Origin: an uncultured candidate division WWE3 bacterium
GTDB taxonomy: Bacteria > Patescibacteriota > WWE3 > UBA101185 > UBA10185
Assembly (NCBI GenBank): GCA_903879985.1
Contig: CAIRNR010000007.1
Span: 151,665 to 215,664 of the forward strand
Length of the DNA stretch: 64,000 nt
Reading direction: 5' to 3'
In this document: positions 15,179 to 33,787 of the stretch, one piece after another
Layout of the letters: each line of letters starts with the position of its first letter
How positions within the stretch are numbered: the first letter of the stretch is position 1
Notes under the pieces: generated by a model
Told to the model about the DNA's origin: nothing
Seen by the model: the letters and a program-made list of their open reading frames with translations, nothing else
Databases searched by the model: none
Position numbers and translations under genes: made by a program

Positions 15179-16375
15179 CTAACTAGACAAGTGCAAAAGA
15201 ATTGTAACACTATCCTGAATTATAAATTTAGCTACCTGTAAGCGTGCCACAATACCCGCGCGCTTTTTTGAAACTTCCAAATAATAAGTTTGGTACTTGC
15301 CGAAGATGTTGTCCCAATTAAACTGTTGCGCTCTTTCCAAACCTTTTTTCTTCATTTGAGAAAGTAAGTGGGAATCGCCGGTAAGTTTTAATGTTTTTTC
15401 GGCAAGATCAGTTGCGTCTTTTGGCGGTATCAACTCTCCTACGCCTCCCACAATTTCTGGATTTGAAGACACGTTAGTAGTTAGAATTGGTAAGCCACAG
15501 GCCATAGCTTCTAAATAAACCCAACCAAATCCTTCATGCAATGTGGGCAACACAAAAAGATCGGCCAGATTATAATACTTTGGCAATAAATCACCTGTGT
15601 TCGAAATTGAACCAACAAGTTTCACATAATCTTCTAAATTATATTTTCGGATTAAATCGTTTAACAACGCACGTTCAACGCCGTCACCAATAATCAAAAA
15701 CACTATATCCGTAACATGCTTTTGGTTAACAATAATATTTGCTGACTCAATTAAAGTAGATAAATTTTTTCGCGGATCCAAGCGACAAACCGTTAAAATA
15801 ACTTTTTTATTTTCCAGAGCGTATTCATGACGTAAATCTGAAACAGCCCAGCCGGGCTTAAACTTTTGTAAATCGAAACCTTTTGGTATTATCTCGGCAC
15901 TATAACCATGTTTTAAGCATTGCTCATTCATAAACTTAGAAATCTGGATAACTCCATCGGCGCGCTTCCCTTCTACAAGTTCAAAGAATTGATCACCGGC
16001 CATAACCATAACGTAAGGAATTCCAAACAACAGCTTTATAAAGCGTGCGAGGTAAGCTTCCAAAGAAAAATGTACGGAAATTAGGTCAAATCTTTTGTGA
16101 TCCAACAAATACATTTTTAGAAATAGGAAGAAGCACTTTATATTAAACAACAACGCAAAAATAATTCCAAAAGCTGAATAACTGTAATAACTTTTTGGGG
16201 CTGACACAAAACGCAAATCAACTTTATCTTTTACAAAATCCAGCTTATCGCCAACAGTCGTAATTACTGTAACTTCGTCGCCATGTATAGAAAACTGGGA
16301 TATTAATTCTTTTATGTGAGTTTCGTTTCCACCCTCGTTATAGCCAACCCAACGATTTATAAAAAGTATTTTCAT
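15179..16375 (-). CDS. Glycosyltransferase family 4.
   Basis: MKILFINRWVGYNEGGNETH N-terminus and an EGFGWVYLEAMACGLPILTTNVSSNPEIVG motif. Confidence 0.85.
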   Translation of the reverse strand: MKILFINRWVGYNEGGNETHIKELISQFSIHGDEVTVITTVGDKLDFVKDKVDLRFVSAPKSYYSYSAFGIIFALLFNIKCFFLFLKMYLLDHKRFDLISVHFSLEAYLARFIKLLFGIPYVMVMAGDQFFELVEGKRADGVIQISKFMNEQCLKHGYSAEIIPKGFDLQKFKPGWAVSDLRHEYALENKKVILTVCRLDPRKNLSTLIESANIIVNQKHVTDIVFLIIGDGVERALLNDLIRKYNLEDYVKLVGSISNTGDLLPKYYNLADLFVLPTLHEGFGWVYLEAMACGLPILTTNVSSNPEIVGGVGELIPPKDATDLAEKTLKLTGDSHLLSQMKKKGLERAQQFNWDNIFGKYQTYYLEVSKKRAGIVARLQVAKFIIQDSVTILLHLSS

Positions 16376-17124
16376 TTTTCAGTTTTAGCAACTACATGAA
16401 AAACATCAGGTGCATTTAAATATGTTTCTTTGGTAATTTTGTTTTGGCGCAAATCCGCAAATTCATAACCTGCGTTATTTAACAAATCGTAAATTTCCGG
16501 CCAGATTTTAGAGCTATGCACCTCAATTAAAAATTTCGGATGATCTTTTGCAATAATTTCTTTGGCACCAATTAGCAATTTATATTCGTAACCTTCAACG
16601 TCAACTTTTATGAAATCAACTTTGGAAAGGTGGTTCTCGTTAACAACGGTATCCAATGTTTTAACATGAAAAATAGTCTCATTTTTTTTAGAATAATTTA
16701 CAAAACCTGAGTCCATAAAGTTAGCCATATTGGAATCGTCAAATGTATGCGCGGTTGCCTCCGAGTTTGAATCACCCAAGGCATATGCACCAGTCTTAAT
16801 ATTCTCAAAACCATTAGCCTTTGCGCTATTATCAACACAAACACAGTTAGGGTCAATTGCTAAAACAAATCCTCCTTTACCGACAATCTTTCTTAATACT
16901 AAAGCGATGTAACCAATATGGCATCCGGCATCAATACAAACGTCGTCAGCGTTAACCACGTGATTAAGTGCGGTAACAACTTCTGGTTCGTATGTACCAA
17001 GAATCTTTTTAATACCGTGCCTTGGTGCCATATAAATGTTCAAACCTTTTAACGTTCCTGACATCACCCTAAATATACGTGGAGCCACAAAGAATTTTCT
17101 AAAAAAGTCATTTAGTATGTTCAT
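16372..17124 (-). CDS. FkbM-family SAM-dependent methyltransferase.
   Basis: VCIDAGCHIGYIALVL...FVLAIDPN matches the FkbM methyltransferase domain pattern. Confidence 0.7.
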   Translation of the reverse strand: MNILNDFFRKFFVAPRIFRVMSGTLKGLNIYMAPRHGIKKILGTYEPEVVTALNHVVNADDVCIDAGCHIGYIALVLRKIVGKGGFVLAIDPNCVCVDNSAKANGFENIKTGAYALGDSNSEATAHTFDDSNMANFMDSGFVNYSKKNETIFHVKTLDTVVNENHLSKVDFIKVDVEGYEYKLLIGAKEIIAKDHPKFLIEVHSSKIWPEIYDLLNNAGYEFADLRQNKITKETYLNAPDVFHVVAKTEK

Positions 17125-18830: not shown

Positions 18831-20012
18831 ATGAAAATACTTTACCTAATTAACGGACTAGGATTCTCCGATAACACAGGAATAGGTGGCGCAGATAAAC
18901 GCGCAGTAGAAATCGCACGACAATCAAACCAATTTAGCGTTTTAACCACTGCATCTGGATATAACTTATTTAAAAATAACGAAGGATTGGACACAACCTA
19001 TTACACAATAAACCAACCAAGCTTTTGGCCTAAGGGAATAAATAAAAATCTGATAGGGCGTATGCTTTCCTATATTTACGCAACTTTTGCATCACTTACA
19101 TATGCAAGTAAAGTAAAAAATTACGACATGTATTTTCCAAGCTCTGATTTTTTCTTTGACGTAATACCCGCTTATTTTTTTAAACTTGCTAATCACAAAA
19201 AGCTGGTTTGTGTGATTCATCATCATATTCAAAATCCATTTAAACGAAAAGGACCCTTGTTGGTTAATATGCTTCTTTTTTTACTGCAACAGCTTAGTAT
19301 TATTTTTTTAAAAGTCACAGCGGAAGCAATATTCTTATACGACACTCCAGAAGGACACTACATTGCTGAAAACTTGCTGAAAAGTTACAAAGGCAAAATA
19401 TTTTTTATGAAAAACGGCATAAGTGTTGAAGCAATTGATAGTGTTCCCACTCAAGAAAAGATTTACGATGCGTGTTTTGTCGGAGGAATAAGACCAAGCA
19501 AAGGTATCGCAGATTTTGTAAAGATTTGGAAAAGTGTAACCGCAGAGATTCCTAAAGCAAAATTTGCCGTTATAGGCGGTGGAAGTGAAGAAAATGTAAA
19601 CAAGCTTAAAGAGGAAATTTATCAGGCGGGACTGCAAGAAAATATTATTTTATTTGGACCACTTAGCGGAAGTGCTGTTTACAAAATTCTAAAGCAAAGC
19701 AAAGTTTTCATGTCCCCAAGTTACGAAGAAGGTTGGGGAATTGCCGTATGCGAAGCGATGTATTGCGAGCTACCGATTGTTTGTTATGATCTTCCCGCAT
19801 ACAAGGTGTTTGGCACGGGTTTGAAAAAGGTTGAGGTTGGAAATTACGAAGAGTTCGCTAAGAATATTCTGGCGTTGTTAAAAGATCCAAAGATGTCTTC
19901 AGAGATTGGCATCCAACTAAAAAATATAGCTGGAAATTTTACTTGGAAAAATATTGCAAAGGAGGATAGTGAATTCCTAAGTCAAATACTACAGGGTACT
20001 ATAATAGTATAA
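18831..20012 (+). CDS. Glycosyltransferase family 4.
   Basis: EGWGIAVCEAMYCELPIVCYDLPAYKVFG motif. Confidence 0.85.
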   Translation: MKILYLINGLGFSDNTGIGGADKRAVEIARQSNQFSVLTTASGYNLFKNNEGLDTTYYTINQPSFWPKGINKNLIGRMLSYIYATFASLTYASKVKNYDMYFPSSDFFFDVIPAYFFKLANHKKLVCVIHHHIQNPFKRKGPLLVNMLLFLLQQLSIIFLKVTAEAIFLYDTPEGHYIAENLLKSYKGKIFFMKNGISVEAIDSVPTQEKIYDACFVGGIRPSKGIADFVKIWKSVTAEIPKAKFAVIGGGSEENVNKLKEEIYQAGLQENIILFGPLSGSAVYKILKQSKVFMSPSYEEGWGIAVCEAMYCELPIVCYDLPAYKVFGTGLKKVEVGNYEEFAKNILALLKDPKMSSEIGIQLKNIAGNFTWKNIAKEDSEFLSQILQGTIIV

Positions 20013-20958
20013 AACCTTCAAAAAAGCCCGAAATACCACGTAATTGGCTTAAATCACGTAATCTAAGCGCACTATAAACCCAGTATAGGTTCAATACCTT
20101 TATGTTAATAATTGCCCCGATCCAACCGCGTAAACTCTTTGGACGCACGTCTTTTCGATAAAACATGCCTGTATCCTTTCCAATAAAATAAGCATTTCTA
20201 GAAGGACCGAGCCTCATAAAATGTTTAGCCGAAACTAAAGGACTAAAAATAATTTTAAACCCTGCAGCTTTTACCCTTATAAATAAATCTCCGTCGGCGT
20301 GATTAAAATTAAATCTTTCATCAAACCCGCCGATTTTTTCTATGATACTTCGGCGTGTGCCCATACTTGTTGTTGTAGCCAAATCTATCTCTTGTCTATC
20401 AAAGTTAACTGCTTCTGGCAACGCTGTCCCCAAACTATATGCGCCGCTCTCAAAAAAATATCCTGGTTTCAAAATATTTCCTTCGGCAACTATATTTAAA
20501 TATGGCCAAGCAATAATTTTCATTACCAAGTTCTTTTGACTGGCCAAATACAATCGATGCATTTCACCAACAGGATAACATTGAGACGGAAGTGGCCCGG
20601 TTATAACTCCAATCTTTTCATCTCCATTAAGTTCTGCCACAATTCCTTCAAGCCAAGTTTTATCGGCTTCGGCGTCATCAGCTAAATAACCAAGTAGTTC
20701 TGTGTCAGCATTTTTCCACCCCAAATTAAAAAGATAAGATAATCTTTTTTTAGGATCGCAAATTACGCGCAAATTGTCATCAGGATATTCGGAAACAATA
20801 TCTTTAATTTTGGAATCGTCTGCAAAGTTTTCGATAATTAGAATTTTAAAATCTTTGTAATTTTGGTTAGTAATTGAGTTTAAAGCTCTTTCCAGATCTT
20901 CTCTTCGACCATTACGTGGATATGTATTAATGATTACTGTAACGGTTTTTTCTTGCAT
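19999..20958 (-). CDS. Glycosyltransferase family 2.
   Basis: VTVIINTYPRNG...DD GT-A N-terminal pattern with DxD-like motifs. Confidence 0.8.
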   Translation of the reverse strand: MQEKTVTVIINTYPRNGRREDLERALNSITNQNYKDFKILIIENFADDSKIKDIVSEYPDDNLRVICDPKKRLSYLFNLGWKNADTELLGYLADDAEADKTWLEGIVAELNGDEKIGVITGPLPSQCYPVGEMHRLYLASQKNLVMKIIAWPYLNIVAEGNILKPGYFFESGAYSLGTALPEAVNFDRQEIDLATTTSMGTRRSIIEKIGGFDERFNFNHADGDLFIRVKAAGFKIIFSPLVSAKHFMRLGPSRNAYFIGKDTGMFYRKDVRPKSLRGWIGAIINIKVLNLYWVYSALRLRDLSQLRGISGFFEGFILL

Positions 20959-21611
20959 TTCATTATTATAGTAGCACCAAGCTCAGGAAACAGCGATGCG
21001 AGTGAAGTAAAACTAAGGCGTCCGGCATTATCAAAATTAATAACGTCCGATGTATATTCTTCAACATAAAAACCATTTTTTTCTAACAAACCTTTTAACG
21101 AAGATTCTACAAAATATCTCAAATGGCCGGCAGCTTTTTCGTCATAAGAAACTTCGGTTAAAGGATTTAAACCCGCCAACAAAAGTATGCGTCGTCCAAA
21201 GGAGGCTAAGTTTGGTGTCGTAACTACTAAAAATCCTGTATCCGTTAGCGCGTTATAAATTTTAGTAAGAAGTCCATCGGTATCAATAACATGTTCTATT
21301 AATTCTCCACAAAGTACACAATCAAACTTTTGATCAAATGGAATTTCTTCATGCTCAATATCACAAACTTTTACAGGTAAACCTTTTTGTACGCAAATGT
21401 CCACACAAGTTTTCGACATTTCTACGCCATAAACTTCGTTACCCTTTTGTTTAATTAATAAACTGATGTCTCCTTTAAAACAGCCTAAGTCTAAAACGCT
21501 TTTTCCTGTGCCTATTAATTTTGCTATTTTTTGTATTCGAATATCATTTACATTAACTGATTCTGCAGTGCTGTACCTTTTTTCGTTAAAGTCTTTTATA
21601 TCTGCAAACAT
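20934..21611 (-). CDS. Class I SAM-dependent methyltransferase.
   Basis: VLDLGCFKGDISLL matches motif I (the LDLGCG type). Confidence 0.8.
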   Translation of the reverse strand: MFADIKDFNEKRYSTAESVNVNDIRIQKIAKLIGTGKSVLDLGCFKGDISLLIKQKGNEVYGVEMSKTCVDICVQKGLPVKVCDIEHEEIPFDQKFDCVLCGELIEHVIDTDGLLTKIYNALTDTGFLVVTTPNLASFGRRILLLAGLNPLTEVSYDEKAAGHLRYFVESSLKGLLEKNGFYVEEYTSDVINFDNAGRLSFTSLASLFPELGATIIMKCKKKPLQ

Positions 21612-22060
21612 TAAAGTGTTCCCCTTGTAAATGCAGTTAATGAAAAATTAGTTAATAATCTAAAGGTCATAAAGTATGAAAACGGACCGACGCTGTTTGT
21701 AACTTGATCTAAACATAAATGTAAAAACATTCCTAACGCTAAAGAATAAAAGAAATATTGTTTTTTTGTAACATGCCCAAGCAGAACCAAACCTAATAGC
21801 CATTCCCACGCATGAAAAATAATAAATGCCCTACCCGAAGCTATGTACGATGCTCCTGTGATAAAGCGCATTAGGTTAAAACCAAAACCTGAATTTAAAA
21901 AGTAATCTATTAAATGATCAAGATCTATAAAGAACCCGCCCATTATTACTAAAGCTGCCGACAAGTATTTTTTATACTTTTTATAGCAATACACCGCGCC
22001 AATTATTGCTAACGACATGTGACCTATTTCTGTGAGTATGAAATGTAGCATGTTGTTCAT
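21611..22060 (-). CDS. YdjM/DUF457-like membrane-bound metal-dependent hydrolase.
   Basis: Four TM helices with IDLDHLIDY and HLCLDQ motifs. Confidence 0.5.
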   Translation of the reverse strand: MNNMLHFILTEIGHMSLAIIGAVYCYKKYKKYLSAALVIMGGFFIDLDHLIDYFLNSGFGFNLMRFITGASYIASGRAFIIFHAWEWLLGLVLLGHVTKKQYFFYSLALGMFLHLCLDQVTNSVGPFSYFMTFRLLTNFSLTAFTRGTL

Positions 22061-22061
22061 T

Positions 22062-23693
22062 CTACTTTGTTTCCGGGGAAGAAAACATACTTTTTAGTGC
22101 CGCCATCCAAAATTTTGGAGACCACCAACTTATTTTTGTTTGGTTTTTATCAAAGTCTAACAAGTGAGCTAAAAGTTTCCATGCGCTGTAAAAAAGAAAC
22201 TTAACGTCGTTTAAGTCACGCACACCTATAACACGTCTGAAAATGTATTGTGGCGAGAAAAACGCCGAATACAACGACTGTGTGAGTTCGTACAACCGTT
22301 CGTTTGAAAACGGCACTTTCATCACTGGTGCGCGCATATCAAAAGCTTCATAATCCGTTGGATCTACAGTGAGCCAGTCTTTTTCAATACATTCTTTATA
22401 AAGCGGTGTACCAGGATAAGGAATTACAATAGTCGCCTGCATAGTTTCGACATAACCCTTTTTAAACAAATCCTTGGCCATATTAATAGTGTTTAAAGCC
22501 ATTTCTTCAGTTTCCCAAGGATAACCAAGCATAATCGTTAAATGTGGTTCTAAACCAGCTTTTCTGGCCATTTTTACACCTTGTTCTATTTCTTCAACCT
22601 TTAAGCCTTTATCTAACTTATCCAAAGTAAATTGGTTTGCTGATTCCATACCGTACAAAATAAATCTAAAGTTAGCCTTACCCATTAAATCGTAATATTC
22701 TTGGGTTAGAGCATTTAAACGCATGTTGCAGCTGTATACAGCTTTTTTGCTGTAACCGGATTCAATCATAAGCTCACAAAACTTCTTTAAAGGTGGACCA
22801 ACAAATAATGTGCCAGCATCATCAAAAATTTCTTTTACTCCATATTTATCAACAACATACTTAACTTCGGCAAACAAACGTTCAGGTGAAAAACGTCGAT
22901 AAGACTTTAATGGGTTAATAGTGTGATCCCAAACACAAAACGTACAACGATTCCACCAGCAATCACGACCTGAATACATATATGTTGCAGGTTTATATTT
23001 ATAATTTCCATTTTCGTAGGCATACAATTCCCAATGAGTGAGATCGCGATCGATAAAAGGTAACTCGTCTAGCTTGTGCTCAAGATGCAATGGGCCTGAT
23101 TTCCAATACTCTGTTTTACCGGAATTTTCGTGCTTAACCCATTCAGGATCTAAATGAACGCGACTGTCATTTTTACGACCATAAATTCCGCCTGGTAACA
23201 TTGTTCCTTTTGTAATAGAGTCGGCCAAGTCGGATAACAAAAAGTCATAATCACCACCTGTAATAATATAATCAACTTTGCAATTTTCTAAAGTTTCAAG
23301 CGGCTTCCAAGTTACATGATCCCCCACCAAAACCACTAAAAGATTTGGCAATTTCGATTTTATTTCATCAACTATTTTCCAGTGTTTTTTTAAAACCGGA
23401 GCTTTTGTTTCGAGTAATAAAATATCGGGAGATTCCTTAAGTAATTCTTCAAGCCAGTCAGAATAGCTTTTTTTTTCAGCGATACCGTCTAACCAAACCA
23501 CATCGTAGCCTCGTTGTTTTGCCAAAGAAGCAGCATACGCAGGTACCATAGGATAAATGTAAGTTGGCGCATTAAAGTACTGAAATTGTCTATTCTGCGA
23601 CAGCAAGGGTACACCTTTTTCTTGTTCTAGTGGTGCATAACCAATGGCAATTTTCATATGGTTAGTATAGTGGTTAGTGACGTCATTGTACAT
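22062..23693 (-). CDS. B12-binding-domain radical SAM protein (class B-like) with atypical cysteine spacing.
   Basis: N-terminal Rossmann-like B12-binding-like region. The cluster GRDCWWNRCTFCVWD reads as CX4CX2C rather than the canonical CX3CX2C. Confidence 0.75.
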   Translation of the reverse strand: MYNDVTNHYTNHMKIAIGYAPLEQEKGVPLLSQNRQFQYFNAPTYIYPMVPAYAASLAKQRGYDVVWLDGIAEKKSYSDWLEELLKESPDILLLETKAPVLKKHWKIVDEIKSKLPNLLVVLVGDHVTWKPLETLENCKVDYIITGGDYDFLLSDLADSITKGTMLPGGIYGRKNDSRVHLDPEWVKHENSGKTEYWKSGPLHLEHKLDELPFIDRDLTHWELYAYENGNYKYKPATYMYSGRDCWWNRCTFCVWDHTINPLKSYRRFSPERLFAEVKYVVDKYGVKEIFDDAGTLFVGPPLKKFCELMIESGYSKKAVYSCNMRLNALTQEYYDLMGKANFRFILYGMESANQFTLDKLDKGLKVEEIEQGVKMARKAGLEPHLTIMLGYPWETEEMALNTINMAKDLFKKGYVETMQATIVIPYPGTPLYKECIEKDWLTVDPTDYEAFDMRAPVMKVPFSNERLYELTQSLYSAFFSPQYIFRRVIGVRDLNDVKFLFYSAWKLLAHLLDFDKNQTKISWWSPKFWMAALKSMFSSPETK

Positions 23694-23694
23694 T

Positions 23695-24717
23695 TTACCC
23701 GCCTAAGTATTTGCCGGAAGCGTCGTCAACACTACGTAATTCTAACTTTGGTCTTTTTAATAAACCTAAAATAAAGTTAAAACCATAAGTAGCGTGAATT
23801 AGCACAAATCCCCAAAAAGCTATAAAAAACACAAAAGGTCCGTGTTTAATTTCTTTGTACGCAATCTTTGTAGTTTCATAAGTTACAAACCAAAAATAAA
23901 GCATTATCAAAAAAAGCATCACAAATCTAAAAGGAAAACTGAAGATACATAAAATAGCACCAATGATTCCAACTAAAATAACAAATGACGGAACAAAGTA
24001 AGCGGGAATTCTTGACGTTGCAGGATACGTACGTGCAAATTGCCCGCGTTGTCGCCCATACCTGGAAATTTGCTTTAAAAATGGTAAGTATAAGTCGCGT
24101 CGATGATGATATACAATAATCGAAGGATCATAGATAAAATCTTTTTTCTTAAGTTTAATTAAATCCAAACAAAGTTTTGTATCTTCACCGGGCCAAAACG
24201 CTTCATCAAAACCACCTACTTTAATAAAAGCTTCTTTTTCTACGAACAAATTTACCGACGGATAATCATTAATATTTCTTCTATCCCGAGGAACATGGCG
24301 ATACGTTGTAAAACCACCGGAAAGCCACGACTCTAAAATATCGCCCGAAAGTTTTTCGCGCACACCTGCGTCGGGTGGTGTCATCGCAGGTCCGCCAAGT
24401 GCATATGTACCTGTTTCGTCAAAAACACTTTTCGCATTTTTTAGCCAATTCTTTGCCGGAAATGCATCATCATCTAAAAAGGCTAATATTTGGCCACGCG
24501 CTTTGTTAGCGCCTATATTTCTTTTTTTAGCAGGACCTACAGCGCCACTTTCCAAAAAAGTAACTTCAGGATAAAGATGCATTACCTCGTTGTCCAAAGA
24601 ATCTAAAATTACGATTGTTTCAAATTCCTTAAATGTCTGATTGGCCAAAGCCTTTAATATTTCTTTTAAGTAAGGATTAAATTTTCTAACCGGAATAACA
24701 ACGCTAAATTTTGTCAT
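23695..24717 (-). CDS. Glycosyltransferase family 2 with a C-terminal transmembrane region.
   Basis: FSVVIPVRKFNPYLKEILKALANQTFKEFETIVILD N-terminus and C-terminal hydrophobic helices. Confidence 0.8.
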   Translation of the reverse strand: MTKFSVVIPVRKFNPYLKEILKALANQTFKEFETIVILDSLDNEVMHLYPEVTFLESGAVGPAKKRNIGANKARGQILAFLDDDAFPAKNWLKNAKSVFDETGTYALGGPAMTPPDAGVREKLSGDILESWLSGGFTTYRHVPRDRRNINDYPSVNLFVEKEAFIKVGGFDEAFWPGEDTKLCLDLIKLKKKDFIYDPSIIVYHHRRDLYLPFLKQISRYGRQRGQFARTYPATSRIPAYFVPSFVILVGIIGAILCIFSFPFRFVMLFLIMLYFWFVTYETTKIAYKEIKHGPFVFFIAFWGFVLIHATYGFNFILGLLKRPKLELRSVDDASGKYLGG

Positions 24718-25543
24718 GTGATAATTCTCCTGTGTTTACACGCATCTCTAATTCTTTGTCGTAAATCCATTTACGTTTACTGGAGTCGTCATAATATTTT
24801 AGAATTTTAAGTCTATAGAAAATTGCGGCGGTATCTAATAACATAGCTCTAACATTCGGCTCAAAGATAAAGGTGAGTCCTATATTTGAGTTTTTACTAT
24901 CCCAAACTACAGTCACAGGAGCTTCGTATATTTTTTTAAAACCCAATCTATGTGCTACCGATAAAATCTCAACATCAAATGCAAAATTTTTAACTAACAC
25001 TCGGGGTAAGACTTTTTCCAATACTTCCCTTTTAAAAACTTTTAAACCTGTTTGGGTATCTTTAACTGGGATATCAAATAAAATTCGAACTAGCAAATGA
25101 TAAACCTCGCTATAAATCCTTCGAACTAAAGGATAAGATACTCGCGAAACCGGATGCCTTTTACTGCCAACAATAATATCAGCGTCATACCATTCCATAT
25201 GTTCTAAAAGCATTGATACACCTTTACGATCAATGTCCATGCCCGCATCTATGAAAGATATATAATACCCCGTCGCACGTACCATACCGTAGCGTATAGC
25301 ATAACCTTTGCCTTTGTTTGTTTCATATCCAAATACCTTTATACGAGGACCGGCCAGTTTTTTGACTTCATCAAAAGTTTTATCTAGAAAGCCATCAACA
25401 ACAACAATAATTTCATATTCCCAGCGAGTTAAAGCCATAGTTGCATCAACAGACTTAATATCTTCAAAAATGGTTTTTTCTTGTTTATAGGCAGGAATAA
25501 TAATCGAAACTTTTTTAGGTTGTGTGCTTGGTTTTTTGTGCAT
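24704..25543 (-). CDS. Glycosyltransferase family 2.
   Basis: VSIIIPAYKQEKTIFEDIKSV...VVDGFLD. Confidence 0.8.
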   Translation of the reverse strand: MHKKPSTQPKKVSIIIPAYKQEKTIFEDIKSVDATMALTRWEYEIIVVVDGFLDKTFDEVKKLAGPRIKVFGYETNKGKGYAIRYGMVRATGYYISFIDAGMDIDRKGVSMLLEHMEWYDADIIVGSKRHPVSRVSYPLVRRIYSEVYHLLVRILFDIPVKDTQTGLKVFKREVLEKVLPRVLVKNFAFDVEILSVAHRLGFKKIYEAPVTVVWDSKNSNIGLTFIFEPNVRAMLLDTAAIFYRLKILKYYDDSSKRKWIYDKELEMRVNTGELSHDKI

Positions 25544-26786
25544 AAATCGTAAGTAACCCTAAAGTGATTATACTAGCAATTATATTTGCGTTTATAACAT
25601 CATACAGACTGGCGTGATTTACTGATATTAAAATGTACTGAATCAAAAGCCCCGGAAGTAAAAAGATAAACACCCAGGTTTTTTCAATTGCCAAACAATA
25701 CATAATGAAAAAGTTAATAAGCACGTAAAATAAAACGAATATTGAAAACCTTGGTAAATACTGAATTGAGTCAAAAAATCTGGAACCAAAAAATATTTGA
25801 GTAATAAGTCCTGGTAAAAATGAAAAAGCTAAAAGTCCGCATAAAGCTACAAAAACCTCAATACTCAACAATTTAAAGAACTTTGCTTTGTAGTTTTCCT
25901 TTTTTGCATAAACCGAAGAAATAATCGGAAACATAATTGTTGTAACAATTCCTGCGCCGAATAAATATATCTTTCCCAAAGTAACGGTGCCCGCGTAATA
26001 ACCTGCCAATGTGGGATCAAAAAACTTTTTAACCAAAATTACGTCCATATTATTTAGTGACATAATTCCTAGATTAATAAAAAACACTGGAAGACTAAAG
26101 GTAAGTAATTTTTTAAACTGAACAGATAAATGATTATCAACTTTTTTACCTAAATCTTCTTTGATAAGTAAATAAGTAGTGGCATACGAGAGTAACATTG
26201 CTACCGACATTCCTCCAAACACCCCTGCGACCTCATAACCAATATAAATTCCGATTAAGGGTAAAACTAATCTAAATAAACTACTTATGATAAAGAAAAA
26301 AGAGAGTGATTTATATTTTAATAAACCCTGCAAATAAGATCCTGCTATGGCGTTTAAAAATAGAAAAGCTAAATATATGTTAAAAGCATTTATATATGAG
26401 GGATTATCAATTTTTAACTGAGATGCAACGTACCCGCTAAAAAGTGTGGCTAATGCATATACAACTACACCTAACAACAAAAACTGAATACTTAACTTTT
26501 TAAATAGAGCGTTAAGTTTTGGATAATCTGCGTTGGCTTTTAGTGTGGCCACAACCTTAACTAATGAAATACCAACTACAGCGGCGGGAACACCAAGTAT
26601 TGTTGATACAGAAAGAAGTGCATTAAAAGAACCGAAATCTTCAACTGACAACATTCTTCCGAGGAAAAACTGAAGTAAATAGCTTAGGAATGAACCTATG
26701 ACTGTACCAATACCAACAACAACAGTTCCATAAAAATATTCATTTTTAATAACTTGGGAAATGTATTTACTTACTGCTTTCATCAA
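25515..26786 (-). CDS. Wzx-like polysaccharide flippase (MOP superfamily).
   Basis: About 12 predicted TM segments in 423 aa, with the typical MOP flippase layout. Confidence 0.65.
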   Translation of the reverse strand: MMKAVSKYISQVIKNEYFYGTVVVGIGTVIGSFLSYLLQFFLGRMLSVEDFGSFNALLSVSTILGVPAAVVGISLVKVVATLKANADYPKLNALFKKLSIQFLLLGVVVYALATLFSGYVASQLKIDNPSYINAFNIYLAFLFLNAIAGSYLQGLLKYKSLSFFFIISSLFRLVLPLIGIYIGYEVAGVFGGMSVAMLLSYATTYLLIKEDLGKKVDNHLSVQFKKLLTFSLPVFFINLGIMSLNNMDVILVKKFFDPTLAGYYAGTVTLGKIYLFGAGIVTTIMFPIISSVYAKKENYKAKFFKLLSIEVFVALCGLLAFSFLPGLITQIFFGSRFFDSIQYLPRFSIFVLFYVLINFFIMYCLAIEKTWVFIFLLPGLLIQYILISVNHASLYDVINANIIASIITLGLLTIYAQKTKHTT

Positions 26787-28417
26787 TTATTACGCTTATA
26801 AACATTGTATACATCAGCACCTCGAACTTTTATCGTTCCTATTTTTGTTACAGAAAAGCGCACTTCAGTAGCACCTGTGTCGTCCCATACAGGATATACA
26901 AAATATTTTGCGTGAATGGCAAATGGAGTTAGATCGGAAATAATAGCAAACATTCCTTTTTCTCTAAAGAATGGCCAAATTTGCGTGTAATATTTTTCTT
27001 GAAAACCTATTGTTTCGGTTTTAGCAATTTCTCCTGACGCAATCATGCCTTCAAGTGATTTGTCCTGATACAAGCGCGTTGAACCATCTTGTGCAGCCAA
27101 TTTATCAAAGTAATCAACTGTCTCCGTAGCACCAATCATCCATTTAGGTTCAATAACATGAATTCCTTTACTAACACCACCTAACAACGGATTGTAATAA
27201 GAAAAGTAATCAGGATATAAATATACCAAAGGAATGGCACTAAGTAATAAAAACATGGCGTATTTTGCGTATTTATTAAACTTTATCCTTCCAGCCAACC
27301 AAAAATAAAATGTTGATGAAATTAAAGACAACGAAAGCATTGCCGGAATAATGTATCTATCTAATTTTTTTGAAGGTAGCGTAAGCTGAATAAAATAGAA
27401 GAAGGTAAAGATAAAACAAAATAGTACAAATTTTTTCAGTGTCTTATCTTTAAGTTGAATATACGTTATCGCGGAACCAAGTATTCCGATTAGCAATAGT
27501 ATAGAAGCCCGATATGCTAGAACCACGAAATAATAAAACACTCCAGGATCTGTCACATATGTATCAAAATAAAATTGGCTGTGATCACCTTCAACGCCTA
27601 TTACCGCAATTCCGCGATACATTGTTTGAATAGCTTCAACTGGATTGACCCACATGATTGGCCAAAATAATACAAATGTCGCTAAAGCTAATCCAAGCCA
27701 AATTCCAAAAGGTACCCAAAGTTTCTTAATTGTTACAAATAAATTGCGATGTTCATCAAGATTCCACAGAAATATGCTTAAACCTGCGAACGGAATTAAA
27801 TACAATGCCGAGGTCTTAGTTAAAATGGCAAATCCGGCAAACACACCGGATAAAATCAGATGCCAATATTTTTTTGTGTTCAAAAAGTAAAATAGCCACA
27901 TAGCACTGGCGATCATAAACGTGGACATCATTCCTTCTAAATGAAAGACTCTGGTTAAAGCAATATATAAAGGTTCCAGAGCAATTCCCGTTATGGCAAA
28001 TGCCGCATATCTTTTACCAAATAATTGTTGAAGAGGATAAAAACAAAAAGCTAGGGTAAGTCCAAGCACGAATACAAGCAATGCCTTTTGTACTACATCC
28101 AAACCAAAAGCCGCAAATGTGGTGTTACCAGAAGCGATTGATTGGTGAGTTATATCGGCATACAGGTTAAATATTTTAACGCCGGCAACGCCAACCCACA
28201 TAAGTGTTACACCAGGATGATATTTTTGAAGCGTCTTTTCAAAGTTTAAGGAAAAAATGCCGGTACCAAAATCGTAGCTACGTGCCTTCCACTTCCATAC
28301 GTCGGTATTAAAGTTGTCATGACCAAGAGACGGGGCGCGCGACAAAACAAATAGAACAACTATCAAAAGCTCGGGTAACAATAATTTTAAGTTTTTCAGC
28401 GTAAATATCTTTTTCAT
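26783..28417 (-). CDS. GT-C fold membrane glycosyltransferase (PMT_2/ArnT-like), paralog A.
   Basis: YHPGVTLMW motif and a KKLDRYIIP C-terminal motif shared with 29915-31462. Confidence 0.7.
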   Translation of the reverse strand: MKKIFTLKNLKLLLPELLIVVLFVLSRAPSLGHDNFNTDVWKWKARSYDFGTGIFSLNFEKTLQKYHPGVTLMWVGVAGVKIFNLYADITHQSIASGNTTFAAFGLDVVQKALLVFVLGLTLAFCFYPLQQLFGKRYAAFAITGIALEPLYIALTRVFHLEGMMSTFMIASAMWLFYFLNTKKYWHLILSGVFAGFAILTKTSALYLIPFAGLSIFLWNLDEHRNLFVTIKKLWVPFGIWLGLALATFVLFWPIMWVNPVEAIQTMYRGIAVIGVEGDHSQFYFDTYVTDPGVFYYFVVLAYRASILLLIGILGSAITYIQLKDKTLKKFVLFCFIFTFFYFIQLTLPSKKLDRYIIPAMLSLSLISSTFYFWLAGRIKFNKYAKYAMFLLLSAIPLVYLYPDYFSYYNPLLGGVSKGIHVIEPKWMIGATETVDYFDKLAAQDGSTRLYQDKSLEGMIASGEIAKTETIGFQEKYYTQIWPFFREKGMFAIISDLTPFAIHAKYFVYPVWDDTGATEVRFSVTKIGTIKVRGADVYNVYKRNN

Positions 28418-29958: not shown

Positions 29959-31462
29959 TTATGTAAATGGAACTATCTTTCACAAAAAAAACATCAGGTC
30001 TATCTTTCATATTTGCGGGTAGGTCTTCACCAATGCCTAAGACTAAAATATCATATTCACCAGGTTCATACGCGCGAACATCAAATACCTTGGAATTTGG
30101 ATATATTGTCTTTATAGGTTTTGTATCATAAAAACCTAGAGAAACTTCCCCATACTTTTTAACTATATAATCTCTAAGTTGCACCATGCCAATTCCAAAT
30201 GGTTTTTGAGCAATAATATGATTAGCCTGCGACGGTGTACCAACCAACGGACTCGTGTATGTAAAGTAGTAAGGATAATAAGTAAACATCGGAAGCATAA
30301 TAAATGCAACTGCAGCAGCTCCGGTAAAACCTAAGTAAATCTTATCTTTATTAATAAAATCTCTAAGCTTGTAAAAACCAAACACAGCTATAATTGCCAA
30401 AAACGGATATTCGGGCAACATATATCTATCCAATTTTTTTGCAGGAATAGTCATCACAACAAAATAGCCTATGTAAAAGACAAACAGCATCAATGTAAAT
30501 GAATTTAAATCAAATCGTAATTTTCTTTTTGTAAGATCTATCAAAAGAAGAAGCGCAAAAATTACAACGCCCAAAAGAGTAAAAGGAGAAACTTTTAGTA
30601 GCAACACCAAAGGATAAAAAGATTCATCCGCCGTTTCGGTGTATTCATCTAAAACTATTTGCGGATGCCCATTTTTTAAACCAACACGTTCAGATTCACT
30701 TATAATATTTTTCAGCACAAACATAGGCTGAACCCATAATGCCGGAAACAGTGCAAAGATCATAACTATCGAAGTAACAGTGACCAAACCTAAATATTTA
30801 ATATTCTTTCGATCTTTAATAATTTGATAGGCCGAATAAAAGAAGGCGAAAACTAAAGTACCAAGTCCAATGCTCTTAGTTAAAAAAGAAAGTGCAATAA
30901 ATAATCCAGTTAATAAAGCATATACAACAGACTTTTTATTAAACGTTAAATACATGCAAATAAGCGCCAGAAACACAAACAAGGTTAACAATACATCCAT
31001 GTGGTACATACGGGAATTTCCCAAAAAGAAAGGTTCCAAAGAAAAAAGCAAGACGGTGAAGAATGATTTATAAAAACCAATTATTTTTGTGAGCAACCAA
31101 AAGATTAAAATCGTAAGAATCAACTGGGCACTTACAACGCTGGCTTTAGCTACAAAATTGAAGGCCAAGAAGTTTGTTCTATCGTAGGTATTAATGTTTG
31201 TGACCTGCTTATACGCTTCAATAGCAACACCTGAAATCCACATTAAAGTTACGCCAGGGTGATAGTGCTGATAGGTTCGCAAAAAGTCGTGAGTTTTAAG
31301 ACCTACAATAAATTGCTGCGATCTATAGTGCCAGTTAACCCCGTCGGGATTTATTTCGTCAGGGCCAAGGTACAGGAAACGCGTCAAACCAAAGACAACG
31401 AAAAACAACACAATAAGTAATATTTTTTTAGTCTTTTCCTGTAGCATACAAAACTCCTCCAA
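29915..31462 (-). CDS. GT-C fold membrane glycosyltransferase, paralog B of 26783-28417.
   Basis: YQHYHPGVTLMWISG and KKLDRYMLPEYPF motifs. Confidence 0.7.
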   Translation of the reverse strand: MEEFCMLQEKTKKILLIVLFFVVFGLTRFLYLGPDEINPDGVNWHYRSQQFIVGLKTHDFLRTYQHYHPGVTLMWISGVAIEAYKQVTNINTYDRTNFLAFNFVAKASVVSAQLILTILIFWLLTKIIGFYKSFFTVLLFSLEPFFLGNSRMYHMDVLLTLFVFLALICMYLTFNKKSVVYALLTGLFIALSFLTKSIGLGTLVFAFFYSAYQIIKDRKNIKYLGLVTVTSIVMIFALFPALWVQPMFVLKNIISESERVGLKNGHPQIVLDEYTETADESFYPLVLLLKVSPFTLLGVVIFALLLLIDLTKRKLRFDLNSFTLMLFVFYIGYFVVMTIPAKKLDRYMLPEYPFLAIIAVFGFYKLRDFINKDKIYLGFTGAAAVAFIMLPMFTYYPYYFTYTSPLVGTPSQANHIIAQKPFGIGMVQLRDYIVKKYGEVSLGFYDTKPIKTIYPNSKVFDVRAYEPGEYDILVLGIGEDLPANMKDRPDVFFVKDSSIYINGLEYWRIYVEEDK

Positions 31463-32306
31463 TTAGACTTACTGCAAGTTTTGATAAGTGAAACAAAATG
31501 GAGGCGCTTAAAGCAACAGCCGGGGAAATTGCTACCAACGTAAATAGATCGCGATACATCGTATCTTGTACCCCAAGTCCGTTAAGTGAGGGAATAAAAA
31601 AACTGGCCAAGGTAATTAGTGGAAAAAACAAAAAAGTTGCACCTAAGGGCAAGCGCACACCTAAAGCCATGAAAATAAAGTACTGGGTGAAGATAGAACA
31701 CAGTTGAACTATTAAAGATGTAACAAGCGCCCAAATTACCACAGATCTATGGTGGCGGTATGAATATAAAGAATCAGAATATTTTTTAATCTTTGGAAAT
31801 TTCTTAGAAATAACCTTTAAGAATTTTAAGCCAATAAATATTCCTGCTATAGCTGCGATTACTACCAAAATAACATAACTTCCAATGTAATGAGTTAAAC
31901 CAAAGATAGAAATAAATCCTAAAACAACAACTCCTGTAAATCTTTCCATAAACGTCGACGAAAAACCTCTGGAGCTATCCCCCAGCTTTTTACTTAACCT
32001 GAAAATCTTGTAAACATCTCCACCAATACTTGTAGGCATGAAGTTATTGAAAAAAGACCCAATGAAATATAAAGAGGTTAAATACCAAACCGAAACTTTA
32101 TTATTCGATTCCAACAATAAGGACTTCCATCTAACGGAACTAATAAAATAGTTCATAACCAATAAACCAAGGATTATTGGAGCGTAAGCTAAATTAACTT
32201 TAGATATCGTAGCTACCAGAGATTGTTTATCAACTTTGAAGTACAGAAAAGCTATCAAAGCAACACTTACCACTATTTTTAAGATTAGCTTTGAATATTT
32301 CTTCAT
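31428..32306 (-). CDS. Lysylphosphatidylglycerol-synthase-TM-region-like (UPF0104, flippase-like) membrane protein.
   Basis: Eight TM helices in 292 aa with a central PTSIGGDVYK segment typical of this family. Confidence 0.55.
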   Translation of the reverse strand: MKKYSKLILKIVVSVALIAFLYFKVDKQSLVATISKVNLAYAPIILGLLVMNYFISSVRWKSLLLESNNKVSVWYLTSLYFIGSFFNNFMPTSIGGDVYKIFRLSKKLGDSSRGFSSTFMERFTGVVVLGFISIFGLTHYIGSYVILVVIAAIAGIFIGLKFLKVISKKFPKIKKYSDSLYSYRHHRSVVIWALVTSLIVQLCSIFTQYFIFMALGVRLPLGATFLFFPLITLASFFIPSLNGLGVQDTMYRDLFTLVAISPAVALSASILFHLSKLAVSLIGGVLYATGKD

Positions 32307-33787
32307 TTAAAACCAAAACGTTTCTTTAAAACTTTTACTTTATTCACTAAATACACAAAATCATCTTTTGTTACAAAACTAGAAATATAAAAACTCCAAA
32401 GCATTAGTGCAACAAAAATAGGAAATGTCACAAACTTAAGCCAAAAGTTATCGACAGTTACGATTAATGAAATTGCAAAGCCTTCCATTATTAGCACAAC
32501 GTGGTCAATGTTAAAGAAAGTTAGTTTAATTGTACGTGAAATCATAATAAGCATGTAAGCCAAAGCAATTAAGGAACCAAATGCGGCGCCCCAAGCCATA
32601 GCGGAAAGTTCGGGCAAAACAGGAATAAGTCTGGAGGTTACATAAAAAAATCCTCCGGTTCCAACAATCATTAACCCAAACGTAATAATCATATCTCGAA
32701 TCATTTTTGCAGGTATTAAAACGCTAGACTTTATAACATTAATATATGAATAAAATATGAACGCCATGATCATTGGCGCTACAAGTGGAAAAGACGCATC
32801 ATACTTTGAGCTGCCTACCAAAATCTTGGCTATTTCTCTGGCCCAAAAAGATGCAAACGCACCTACAAAAAGAACAATACAGAATAACTTATCAAAGTTT
32901 TTGGCAAAACTAACCTTAAAATCTTCTATATCGTTTACATACTTTTCGGAAAACACTGGCAAACTAACATCAGTAGCGGCATCGGAAATACTCATAAGTT
33001 TTTTAGCATACAACATAGCAAAAGCAAAAATTGCGACTGTAGCCGGGGTATTAAACAATCCTAAAATATTGTTACCCATCTTTTCCCAGTTAGTGTAAAT
33101 AACTTTAACCAAATAAATGGCCATGCTTATAGAAAATATTTCCTTAAACAAGCGTGTAAAGTCGCGCTTATTCGGCAGCTGCAATTTTCCTTTGAGAGGT
33201 TTAAAAGCTATAACTGCCAATGAAACCGAGCAAATAATATTAAAGGCCAAAAGTGCATAAAAATAACCGTTAATCTTGTATAACAATATTAAAGGCACGT
33301 ACACAATAACACTAACGAAAGCTATAACGACTTGATATATAAACAACTGACCAAATCTTTTTGTTCCTTGGATTACGGAGTTCAAGATACTCTGAAAACC
33401 CTGAAAGATTAAGGTTACAGCGTAAATTTTTAAAGGTAGCACCAGTAAGTCACTTTTATACATAGTTACAGCAATAAAATGTGCGAAAAAGAAAAGAACA
33501 AAAGCAACAGGAATACTTATAACGTATCGTATGACAGCCGAGGTAATGAAGACCTTGAAAACATCACTATCGTCCTTAGCGGCCGAAATTTCTCGAGTAC
33601 TGGCCGAGGCTAAACCTAAGTGTTGGTAAATACCCAAAGCACCACCAATAGATGAAGCTATTTGAACAATTCCCCAGTCGGAAACACTCAATATACGTAT
33701 TATTACAAACGTTTGAATAAGGCCCAGCGCCATTGCCATGCCTCTTGATATGAAGCTAATAAATTGCCATTTACCTAGTTCTTTCAT
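32303..33787 (-). CDS. Wzx-like polysaccharide flippase (MOP superfamily).
   Basis: 494 aa with about 12-14 TM segments. Confidence 0.65.
   Translation of the reverse strand: MKELGKWQFISFISRGMAMALGLIQTFVIIRILSVSDWGIVQIASSIGGALGIYQHLGLASASTREISAAKDDSDVFKVFITSAVIRYVISIPVAFVLFFFAHFIAVTMYKSDLLVLPLKIYAVTLIFQGFQSILNSVIQGTKRFGQLFIYQVVIAFVSVIVYVPLILLYKINGYFYALLAFNIICSVSLAVIAFKPLKGKLQLPNKRDFTRLFKEIFSISMAIYLVKVIYTNWEKMGNNILGLFNTPATVAIFAFAMLYAKKLMSISDAATDVSLPVFSEKYVNDIEDFKVSFAKNFDKLFCIVLFVGAFASFWAREIAKILVGSSKYDASFPLVAPMIMAFIFYSYINVIKSSVLIPAKMIRDMIITFGLMIVGTGGFFYVTSRLIPVLPELSAMAWGAAFGSLIALAYMLIMISRTIKLTFFNIDHVVLIMEGFAISLIVTVDNFWLKFVTFPIFVALMLWSFYISSFVTKDDFVYLVNKVKVLKKRFGFK

What the first reader, a model, noticed from the sequence alone, without database searches (positions are those of the whole stretch)
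20934..23693. Sugar-modification module: B12-binding radical SAM enzyme with a non-canonical CX4CX2C cluster motif, a class I methyltransferase and a YdjM-like hydrolase
The radical SAM protein has an N-terminal B12-binding-like Rossmann region, as in class B radical SAM methylases that C-methylate unactivated carbons in sugars and antibiotics. Its cysteine triad reads C-WWNR-C-TF-C, which is one residue longer than the canonical CX3CX2C. It sits between a SAM methyltransferase and GT2 genes. An FkbM methyltransferase lies at 16372-17124. Together these suggest a methylated, possibly C-methylated, sugar in the glycan.
Basis: partly seen in the sequence, partly recalled or inferred. Interest (0 to 1): 0.55.

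Follow-up and report, generated by a model that had tools for sequence, protein, structure and literature searches.

The report
HpnJ-like radical SAM enzyme in glycan operon
A very well conserved two-domain radical SAM enzyme of tiny Patescibacteria (WWE3) really does carry an extended CX4CX2C iron-sulfur motif, but it travels with two glycosyltransferases and a flippase rather than with the methyltransferase, and its nearest known relatives rearrange or dehydrate sugars instead of methylating them.

Summary
The ORF at 22062-23693(-) encodes a radical SAM protein with an N-terminal five-strand Rossmann (B12-binding-like) domain. Its only possible cluster triad is C245-WWNR-C250-TF-C253. CX4CX2C is kept in 120/120 close homologues and 79/80 related genomes, and no alignment restores CX3.

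The motif is not unprecedented. The cobalamin radical SAM ring-contraction enzyme OxsB has the same CX4CX2C, and in relatives of this protein the spacer runs from CX3 to CX17.

The proposed "module" is only partly real. Across 80 WWE3/Microgenomates genomes the conserved partners lie upstream: two GT2 glycosyltransferases (sometimes fused), a Wzx-like flippase and a PMT-type GT-C. The YdjM-like membrane protein and class I methyltransferases each appear downstream in only about 20% of loci.

C-methylation is therefore possible but not favoured, and cobalamin use is unproven. This is an uncharacterised, strongly conserved subfamily of a known kind. Interest is moderate.

The parts
22062..23693 (-). 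Radical SAM enzyme, 543 aa from the first ATG. The JGI gene call and most homologues start at M13 (23657). HpnJ-like, class-B-like architecture.
   Evidence: Radical_SAM 4e-16; HpnJ TIGR03471 159 bits (cut-off 577.6). 61-78% identical to homologues in the 80 best-matching of 451 GTDB species genomes that encode a relative.
23208..23657 (-). N-terminal Rossmann (B12-binding-like) domain, residues ~13-162. Five strands and five helices, with a long conserved beta1-alpha1 loop (PLLSQNRQFQYF...).
   Evidence: Pfam PF02310 30.8 bits (GA 32.1). DSSP of the AF2 model. [quoted passage not shown]
22935..22961 (-). Cluster-binding loop C245-WWNR-C250-TF-C253 (CX4CX2C).
   Evidence: Translation. Invariant Cys columns. 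120/120 and 79/80 conservation. One-residue insertion relative to CX3 relatives.
22479..22967 (-). Radical SAM core (partial TIM barrel), residues 243-405. Includes the conserved G-x-E-S element (YGMESAN).
   Evidence: Pfam PF04055 stretch 243-405. Near-invariant G336/E338/S339 in M13 numbering.
21611..22060 (-). Small multi-pass membrane protein, weakly YdjM-like, with conserved Asp/His/Glu residues. Facultative downstream partner of the rSAM.
   Evidence: PF04307 17 bits, E 0.004 (below cut-off). Found downstream on the same strand in 13-15 of 69 loci. Conserved D46, D48, H49, D52, H83, E86, H114, D118.
20934..21611 (-). Class I SAM-dependent methyltransferase (Methyltransf_23, MetW/UbiG-like). 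Accessory gene, not consistently linked to the rSAM.
   Evidence: Homologues are 25-53% identical at variable distance. In several loci it is adjacent to the GT2_319 homologue (L015, L041, L070).
19999..20958 (-). GT2 glycosyltransferase (319 aa), overlapping the methyltransferase gene by 25 nt.
   Evidence: PF00535 1.8e-14. Homologues at 48-60% identity in about 7 loci.
23695..24717 (-). GT2 glycosyltransferase (340 aa) with a C-terminal membrane region, immediately upstream of the rSAM. Core conserved partner.
   Evidence: PF00535 2.5e-15; MftF-like 108 bits. Upstream on the same strand in 61/68 loci, plus 5 fusions.
24704..25543 (-). GT2 glycosyltransferase (279 aa) resembling polyprenyl-phosphate sugar synthases (PpgS, PgfS, AglJ, ArnC-like). 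Core conserved partner, fused to the 340-aa GT2 in 5 genomes.
   Evidence: 59/65 loci; fusions in L018, L029, L031, L032, L035.
25515..26786 (-). Wzx-like (Polysacc_synt) flippase. Core conserved partner.
   Evidence: 53/62 loci.
26783..28417 (-). PMT_2-type GT-C glycosyltransferase. Conserved at this position in the WWE3 loci.
   Evidence: 35/56 loci.
16372..17124 (-). Part of the glycan island, with no specific link to the rSAM.
   Evidence: Homologues near the rSAM only in L022 and L070.

Best explanation
The gene encodes an active radical SAM enzyme of the HpnJ/BchE/AprD4 branch of the 'B12-domain' radical SAM proteins.

Shown: three invariant cysteines (C245, C250, C253; CX4CX2C) sit where the SAM-cleaving [4Fe-4S] cluster is ligated. 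The extra residue lies in a loop that tolerates CX3 to CX17 in relatives. The protein is the most conserved gene of an operon that is conserved across WWE3 and Microgenomates: GT-C, Wzx flippase, GT2, GT2, rSAM.

Inferred: the two GT2 enzymes build a membrane-anchored glycoside, probably polyprenyl-phosphate-linked, on the cytoplasmic face. The rSAM reductively cleaves SAM, and the 5'-deoxyadenosyl radical abstracts a hydrogen from the sugar. The sugar is then rearranged without methyl transfer, either by ring contraction to a carbocycle (as proposed for HpnJ and Cds) or by radical dehydration (as in AprD4). The modified unit is flipped outward and transferred by the GT-C to a surface acceptor.

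The methyltransferase, the YdjM-like membrane protein and the downstream GT2 are lineage-specific tailoring genes of the same glycan cluster. They are not obligate partners. Whether cobalamin is used is open.
For: - Active-site integrity: invariant Cys triad and conserved SAM-core residues; confident two-domain model.
- Family placement: HpnJ TIGR03471 is the best NCBIfam hit for the query (159 bits, E 1.9e-46, nearly full length). It is also the best hit for all ten relatives tested, which score 102-471 bits. BchE is second for the query at 91 bits, and methylase models score no more than 59 bits.
- CX4CX2C is shared with the ring-contraction enzyme OxsB.
- Synteny: GT2_340 in 61/68 loci, GT2_279 in 59/65, flippase in 53/62, GT-C in 35/56, with GT2-GT2 fusions in 5 genomes. 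This parallels hpnI (GT2) next to hpnJ, as described in PMC13459092.
- The rSAM has a median identity of 68%, against 41-58% for its operon partners.
- Deeper relatives also sit with GT2, GT-C and phosphoglycosyl-transferase genes (L082, L083, L088).
Against: - The HpnJ score is far below the family cut-off, so orthology and the same chemistry cannot be assumed.
- The biochemistry of HpnJ and Cds themselves is only proposed from knock-outs.
- No HpnK-like deacetylase is present.
- W255 occupies the position of TokK W215, the residue stacked between cobalamin and the cluster in methylases.
- Relatives often have a class I methyltransferase directly downstream (L001, L024, L086, L088), whose meaning is unknown.
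- The substrate is inferred from gene order only.
Confidence: 0.45

Rival explanations
1. One reading: a cobalamin-dependent class B radical SAM C-methyltransferase installs a C-methyl group on an unactivated carbon of a sugar in the glycan. The neighbouring class I and FkbM methyltransferases add O- or N-methyl groups.
For: - N-terminal Rossmann domain with the class-B layout and a long 'His loop'.
- An invariant Gly on beta4 (G124), and G-D where the family consensus has the 'GE' motif at alpha5.
- R/K243 and W255 match TokK R204 and W215, which contact cobalamin.
- Methylases TsrM, CysS and MgmA are strong structural neighbours.
- Most characterised class B enzymes are methylases (PMC9204698).
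Against: - Methylase family models score only 25-59 bits, against 159 for HpnJ.
- The top structural neighbour, AprD4, does not bind cobalamin.
- The Pfam B12-binding hit is below the gathering score.
- The Ser/Thr of the Gly-x-Ser/Thr-x-Leu cobalamin motif is replaced by a conserved Glu (L93-L-E95-T-K97).
- There is no B12 riboswitch or B12 gene in the 64 kb window.
- Patescibacteria generally lack cofactor biosynthesis (own knowledge, not tested here).
Confidence: 0.27
2. The enzyme modifies the lipid carrier or another non-sugar substrate rather than the sugar. Candidates are the polyprenyl or acyl chain, or a protein or peptide. Precedents are the ladderane, GDGT and RiPP enzymes of the same superfamily. 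The GT2 adjacency would then reflect a shared membrane pathway only.
For: - Weak matches to lipid and RiPP rSAM models: rSAM_ladder_B12 53 bits, ApyD 61 bits, rSAM_ocin_1 54 bits.
- C-terminal amphipathic helices that could dock on a membrane.
- A Cys-less relative sits next to ABC exporters rather than GTs (L087).
Against: - These matches are much weaker than the HpnJ match.
- There is no precursor-peptide-like or lipid-synthesis gene in the operon.
- Linkage to GT2 genes is tight and deep, including gene overlap and persistence in distant relatives.
Confidence: 0.15
3. The CX4CX2C loop marks a degenerate, non-catalytic radical SAM homologue (a structural or regulatory subunit).
For: Some full-length relatives have lost all three cysteines (P0140, P0143, P0149, P0152, P0155), so cluster-free descendants of this family exist.
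Against: - In this clade the triad and flanking residues are nearly invariant.
- The protein is the most conserved gene in the operon.
- OxsB proves that CX4CX2C binds a functional cluster.
- Inteins target exactly this loop in relatives, which is typical of essential active-site segments.
Confidence: 0.03

Closest known systems
HpnJ (TIGR03471), the hopanoid-associated B12-domain radical SAM protein. It is proposed to contract the glucosamine ring of BHT-glucosamine to the cyclitol ether.
   Same: Best-scoring curated family (159 bits, E 1.9e-46, profile positions 31-444 of 472). Same two-domain layout. Same W two residues after the third Cys. Encoded next to a GT2 glycosyltransferase, as hpnJ is next to hpnI. 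Presumed substrate is a membrane-anchored glycoside.
   Different: The score is far below the 577.6-bit cut-off. Identity to the most HpnJ-like relative tested is 31%. The motif is CX4CX2C instead of CX3CX2C. There are no hopanoid genes and no HpnK-type deacetylase. The host is a Patescibacterium. The operon carries a flippase and a GT-C, implying export of the product.
AprD4 (PDB 6FD2), a radical SAM 1,2-diol dehydratase acting on the aminoglycoside paromamine.
   Different: AprD4 does not bind cobalamin (PMC12931638). [quoted passage not shown] The NCBIfam AprD4 model scores only 38 bits. AprD4 belongs to an antibiotic pathway, not an envelope glycan operon.
OxsB (PDB 5UL2-5UL4), a cobalamin-dependent radical SAM enzyme that contracts the deoxyribose ring to an oxetane.
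   Same: The only solved class B enzyme with the same CX4CX2C spacing. The loop aligns as C-DYSR-C-TF-C-PRDH versus C-WWNR-C-TF-C-VWDH. Non-methylase. The Cbl-type Rossmann domain aligns (122 bits).
Class B radical SAM methylases (TokK, TsrM, CysS, MgmA/QCMT, GenK, Fom3, HpnP/HpnR).
   Different: Family models score no more than 59 bits. All have CX3CX2C. The Ser/Thr of the cobalamin motif is replaced by Glu. There is no evidence of methyl transfer.
Calditol synthase Cds (Saci_1489) of Sulfolobus, and PtmC of pactamycin biosynthesis.
   Same: Functional analogy only. These are radical SAM enzymes proposed to convert a lipid- or aglycone-bound hexose into a five-membered carbocycle after a glycosyltransferase step.
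   Different: The hosts and acceptors differ (archaeal GDGT, antibiotic).

Membership tests
Radical SAM superfamily (PF04055) | Pfam Radical_SAM match above the gathering score | tested here: met
   60.1 bits against a GA of 29.5, residues 243-405.
Radical SAM superfamily (PF04055) | Three cysteines in a CX3CX2C-type loop at the start of the barrel that ligate the [4Fe-4S] cluster | tested here: met
   C245, C250 and C253 are invariant. The spacing is CX4CX2C, a variant proven functional in OxsB. Actual cluster binding is not testable here.
Cobalamin-dependent (class B) radical SAM enzymes | N-terminal five-strand Rossmann Cbl-binding domain preceding the rSAM barrel | tested here: met
   AF2 model secondary structure. 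[quoted passage not shown] Pfam PF02310 is borderline at 30.8 bits against a GA of 32.1.
Cobalamin-dependent (class B) radical SAM enzymes | Gly(-Gly) on beta4 forming the DMB pocket, and Gly-Glu at the start of alpha5 (PMC9204698) | tested here: inconclusive
   G124 is invariant (VLVGDH). The family consensus at alpha5 is GE, but this protein has G147-D148.
Cobalamin-dependent (class B) radical SAM enzymes | Downstream Cbl motif Gly-x-Ser/Thr-x-(Leu/Asn/Arg/Tyr) on the beta3-alpha3 loop | tested here: not met
   The aligned residues are L93-L94-E95-T96-K97. The Ser/Thr position is a conserved Glu.
Cobalamin-dependent (class B) radical SAM enzymes | Binds cobalamin and needs it for turnover | not testable with these tools
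   AprD4, the closest structure, has a similar domain but binds no cobalamin. There is no B12 riboswitch or B12 gene in the window.
HpnJ (TIGR03471 equivalog) | Score at or above the curated cut-off (577.6 bits) | tested here: not met
   159 bits. The best relative tested reaches 470.6 bits.
HpnJ (TIGR03471 equivalog) | Hopanoid gene context (shc/hpnF, hpnH, hpnI, hpnK) | tested here: not met
   No such gene was found among the window ORFs scanned, which cover about 0.5-45 kb. The ORFs between about 45 and 64 kb were not scanned. Only a generic GT2 adjacency is shared.
Class B radical SAM C-methyltransferases (GenK, Fom3, HpnP/R, TokK type) | Membership of a methylase family model, or demonstrated methyl transfer | tested here: not met
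   PhpK 58.5, rSAM_ocin_1 54.3, MJ_0865 47.7, HpnR 46.6 and KedN5 24.7 bits, all far below their cut-offs. Activity is not testable here.
YdjM family (PF04307) | Pfam match above the gathering score (29 bits) | tested here: not met
   17.1 bits, E 0.0041, with no NCBIfam hit. A different small membrane protein in L009 does pass, at 40.5 bits.
Class I SAM-dependent methyltransferases | Pfam Methyltransf_23/11/25 match and the Gly-rich SAM motif I | tested here: met
   77.1 bits against a GA of 27. The motif VLDLGCFKG is visible in the translation.

The most novel reading that the evidence does not exclude
Patescibacteria of the WWE3/Microgenomates lineages use a dedicated operon (GT2, GT2, HpnJ-like rSAM, flippase, GT-C) to make a carrier-lipid-linked sugar. 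A radical mechanism then converts that sugar into a carbocyclic (cyclitol-type) or otherwise rearranged unit, which is displayed on the cell surface. This would be HpnJ/Cds-type head-group chemistry outside hopanoids and archaeal tetraethers, in organisms that cannot make their own lipids, and possibly without cobalamin.
Probability: 0.2. Interest if true: 0.65.

Novelty: new variant of a known kind. Interest (0 to 1): 0.38.

Why it matters
The protein is one of the best conserved envelope-related genes in WWE3 and Microgenomates. It is 61-78% identical across the 80 best-matching of 451 species-level genomes that encode a relative, yet it has no assigned function and no literature. Finding its reaction would show what unusual sugar these ultra-small, host-dependent bacteria put on their surface. 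It would also test whether a B12-type domain is functional in organisms thought unable to make B12. Finally, it would offer a small, tractable relative for the still uncharacterised HpnJ/Cds ring-contraction chemistry. The variable Cys loop (CX3 to CX17, inteins, Cys-less paralogues) is a useful natural experiment on how much the radical SAM cluster loop can tolerate.

Tried and rejected
- **Alignment shift to a canonical CX3CX2C:** rejected. There are no other cysteines within 90 residues, and four independent alignments put the gap in the partner.
- **The motif as a sequencing or assembly artefact:** rejected by 120/120 and 79/80 conservation.
- **rSAM + YdjM-like + methyltransferase as a conserved module:** rejected by synteny counts.
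- **Exact look-up of the window's own protein (P0001):** not on record, so the sample source is unknown.
- **Foldseek against AFDB50:** library unavailable.
- **Zeng et al. 2018 (Cds paper):** not held, so the domain make-up of Cds could not be checked.
- **Literature searches for this family in Patescibacteria/CPR:** nothing found.
- **Rfam scan for a cobalamin riboswitch:** no hits at all in the window.
- **HpnK-like deacetylase near the rSAM:** none found. A recurrent ~320-aa insert between the GT2 and the rSAM in 10 loci is only weakly GH42-like and is absent from this window.
- **Start codon:** the first ATG (23693) follows a GGCGGG stretch 4 nt upstream and sits 1 nt after the GT2 stop. 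The database gene call uses M13 (23657). Unresolved and of no consequence.


Full report
**1. What is there**

The finding covers three tightly packed minus-strand genes:
- a 543-aa radical SAM (rSAM) protein at 22062-23693;
- a 149-aa membrane protein at 21611-22060;
- a 225-aa methyltransferase at 20934-21611.

The junctions are 1 nt apart, overlapping by 1 nt, and overlapping the next GT2 gene by 25 nt. The genes are therefore almost certainly co-transcribed.

They lie inside a ~42-kb, single-strand glycan island at about 3.2-45 kb. The island holds a Bac_transf phosphoglycosyl transferase, about ten GT4, seven GT2, six PMT_2-type GT-C proteins, two Wzx-like flippases and a UDP-glucose dehydrogenase. 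The closest relatives are all from candidate division WWE3 and Microgenomates/Roizmanbacteria, that is, Patescibacteria.

**2.

- Pfam finds Radical_SAM at 60 bits and B12-binding at 30.8 bits, just under the 32.1-bit gathering score.
- An AlphaFold2 model built on a 64-sequence alignment is confident (pLDDT 93, pTM 0.91). It shows a five-strand/five-helix Rossmann domain with a long beta1-alpha1 loop, then the rSAM barrel and C-terminal helices.
- The codons at 22935-22961 read CWWNRCTFC.
- The protein has only seven cysteines. Only C245, C250 and C253 are invariant in the family alignment.
- Alignments to MgmA and TokK, to AprD4, MgmA, TsrM and TokK by profile, and to an HpnJ-like relative all place a one-residue gap in the partner inside the first spacer.
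- The motif is kept in 120/120 close homologues and 79/80 related genomes. The local consensus is [RK]DCWW[NG][RK]CTFC[VI]WDH.

**3. The motif is not unprecedented, and the loop is plastic**

The Bridwell-Rabb/Drennan review states that OxsB, the first solved cobalamin-dependent rSAM enzyme, has CX4CX2C instead of CX3CX2C (PMC9204698). In the profile alignment the OxsB loop SRGC-DYSR-CTFC-PRDH lines up with GRDC-WWNR-CTFC-VWDH.

An exhaustive search of 50%-identity representatives found 286 relatives at E<=1e-30. Within them the first spacer is:
- CX3 in the HpnJ-like sequences;
- CX4 in this clade and its neighbours;
- CX7, CX9-10 and CX17 in others.

Several full-length relatives have lost the cysteines altogether. 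In five representatives an intein interrupts exactly this loop. So the extra residue is a lineage trait in an insertion-tolerant loop. It is not evidence of unusual cluster chemistry.

**4. Which genes really belong together**

I fetched the 80 best-matching loci out of 451 GTDB species genomes that encode a relative. I then mapped homologues of the window's neighbours onto them.

| Gene | Position relative to rSAM | Loci with gene / loci with enough flank |
|---|---|---|
| 340-aa GT2 | upstream, same strand | 61/68 (plus 5 where it is fused to the 279-aa GT2) |
| 279-aa GT2 | upstream | 59/65 |
| Wzx-like flippase | upstream | 53/62 |
| PMT_2-type GT-C | upstream | 35/56 (the WWE3 loci) |
| YdjM-like gene | downstream | 13-15/69 |
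| class I methyltransferase | downstream, within 3 kb | about 15/69 |
| ~350-aa GT2 with no homologue in this window | downstream | 42 loci |

The window's methyltransferase has its best homologues next to homologues of the 319-aa GT2, not next to the rSAM (L015, L041, L070). The rSAM is also the most conserved gene of the set, with a median identity of 68% against 46, 58, 41 and 48% for its partners.

The functional unit is therefore GT-C, flippase, GT2, GT2, rSAM. The three-gene 'module' of the finding is partly a local accident of gene order.

Deeper relatives repeat the theme:
- P0134 is followed by a Bac_transf enzyme.
- P0128 sits with three paralogous rSAMs (four B12-rSAM genes in all), GT2s, and PMT and YfhO GT-C genes.
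- P0138 sits with three paralogous B12-domain rSAMs (plus a SPASM-type radical SAM gene), GT1, GT2, YfhO and a class I methyltransferase.

**5. What it resembles**

Sequence families:
- Among NCBIfam models the best hit is HpnJ (159 bits, E 1.9e-46, nearly full length).
- BchE follows at 91 bits, and ApyD (61 bits) and the methylase and other models score 61 bits or less.
- All ten relatives tested also hit HpnJ best, at 102-471 bits. None reaches the 577.6-bit cut-off.

Function of HpnJ: it is needed for BHT cyclitol ether and is proposed to contract the glucosamine ring installed by the GT2 HpnI. Cds (calditol) and PtmC are proposed to do analogous chemistry. None of these has been reconstituted.

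Structure:
- AprD4 carries a Rossmann-like N-domain but does not bind cobalamin (PMC12931638).

**6. Cobalamin**

Evidence for a real cobalamin site:
- A Gly on beta4 is invariant.
- The family consensus has the 'GE' motif at alpha5, where this protein has GD.
- R/K243 and W255 match TokK R204 and W215, which touch cobalamin.

Evidence against:
- The Pfam hit is below threshold.
- The Ser/Thr of the Gly-x-Ser/Thr-x-Leu motif is a conserved Glu.
- The nearest structure is cobalamin-free.
- The window has no B12 riboswitch or B12 gene.
- Patescibacteria are generally cofactor auxotrophs (my own knowledge, not tested here).

I leave this question open.

**7. Most likely mechanism**

Shown: a competent-looking rSAM active site, the CX4CX2C triad, and conserved operon partners.

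Inferred: the two GT2s build a glycoside on a membrane carrier. One of them resembles polyprenyl-phosphate sugar synthases such as PpgS, PgfS, AglJ and ArnC, all below cut-off. The rSAM generates a 5'-deoxyadenosyl radical, abstracts a sugar hydrogen, and rearranges or dehydrates the sugar without methyl transfer. The product is then flipped and transferred by the GT-C.

My confidence estimates are:
- about 0.45 for this explanation;
- about 0.15 for action on a non-sugar substrate;
- about 0.03 for a degenerate protein.

**8. The other two genes**

The methyltransferase is a bona fide class I enzyme (Methyltransf_23, 77 bits), but its substrate cannot be inferred.

The 149-aa protein is only weakly YdjM-like (17 bits, below cut-off). 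Its 17 homologues conserve D46, D48, H49, D52, H83, E86, H114 and D118. That set is compatible with a membrane-embedded metal-dependent hydrolase. It could play a trimming role analogous to HpnK, but this is speculation.

**9. Verdict**

This is an uncharacterised, strongly conserved subfamily of a known enzyme kind. It has a known motif variant and a newly defined operon context. No paper on it was found. Interest is moderate at 0.38. The most novel reading still open is cyclitol-type radical sugar chemistry on the surface of CPR bacteria, with a probability of about 0.2.

Noticed in passing
Relatives P0122, P0124, P0125, P0126 (intein before the 3rd Cys) and P0123 (intein before the 1st Cys); equivalent window position 22935-22961(-): Inteins are inserted exactly inside the Fe-S cluster loop of relatives of this rSAM. 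The junctions read CTF|CF[PH]PET...HSYTA...N|CSW and GRD|CFPAGT...VHN|CWW. The long inteins contain a LAGLIDADG-like block (YYLAEGH). After splicing the loops would read CX4CX2C or CX17CX2C.
   Followed up: partly
Relatives P0140, P0143, P0149, P0152, P0155; locus L087: Full-length relatives at 33-38% identity have lost all three cluster cysteines, so they are presumably non-catalytic paralogues. One of them (P0140) lies next to two ABC exporter genes rather than glycosyltransferases.
   Followed up: partly
Relatives P0131, P0132, P0133, P0138, P0142, P0147, P0153: The first spacer of the Cys triad expands to 7, 9-10 and 17 residues in relatives (for example C-WWRKDGG-C and C-GGKGGALDRMESSTPGR-C). 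The loop is an insertion hot spot.
   Followed up: partly
window 3232-45124, minus strand: One ~42-kb glycan/envelope island, almost all on one strand. It contains a Bac_transf PGT (3232-3867), about 10 GT4, about 7 GT2, six PMT_2-type GT-C proteins including a 975-aa Wzy_C-PMT fusion (7336-10263), two Wzx-like flippases (25515-26786, 32303-33787), LPG_synthase_TM (31428-32306), DUF2079 (33798-35933), UDP-glucose dehydrogenase (41859-43235) and a GT2-GtrA fusion (43985-45124).
   Followed up: partly
loci L083 (2252-12556) and L088 (5514-13123): Distant relatives occur as three or four paralogous B12-domain rSAM genes in one cluster, interleaved with GT2/GT1, YfhO/PMT GT-C and class I methyltransferase genes. 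This suggests serial radical modifications of one glycan.
   Followed up: no
loci L012, L013, L016, L017, L018, L020, L029, L033, L037, L060 (between the GT2 and the rSAM): A recurrent ~320-aa protein is inserted between the 340-aa GT2 homologue and the rSAM in 10 related genomes. It has only a weak GH42-like match (E 0.0035). It is absent from this window.
   Followed up: partly
loci L001-L081, within 3 kb downstream of the rSAM (e.g. L005 11021-12070): A ~350-aa GT2 with a C-terminal membrane region follows the rSAM in 42 related loci but has no homologue anywhere in this window (tblastn E<=1e-4). This genome has a different downstream set: YdjM-like, methyltransferase, 319-aa GT2.
   Followed up: yes
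locus L001 3219-3479: A small ferredoxin gene (Fer4_13/15) lies directly after the fused GT2-GT2 gene in one related genome. It is a possible electron donor for the rSAM. None is seen in this window's operon.
   Followed up: no
window 1-64000: The Rfam gathering-threshold scan found no RNA family at all, meaning no riboswitch, tRNA or other family. The region from about 48 to 64 kb looks like the ribosomal-protein / EF-Tu / EF-G / rpoC region judging by ORF sizes only.
   Followed up: no
window 475-1221 and 1267-3225, minus strand: RecO (RecO_N + RecO_C) and a 652-aa DUF4012 protein flank the low-coordinate end of the glycan island.
   Followed up: no
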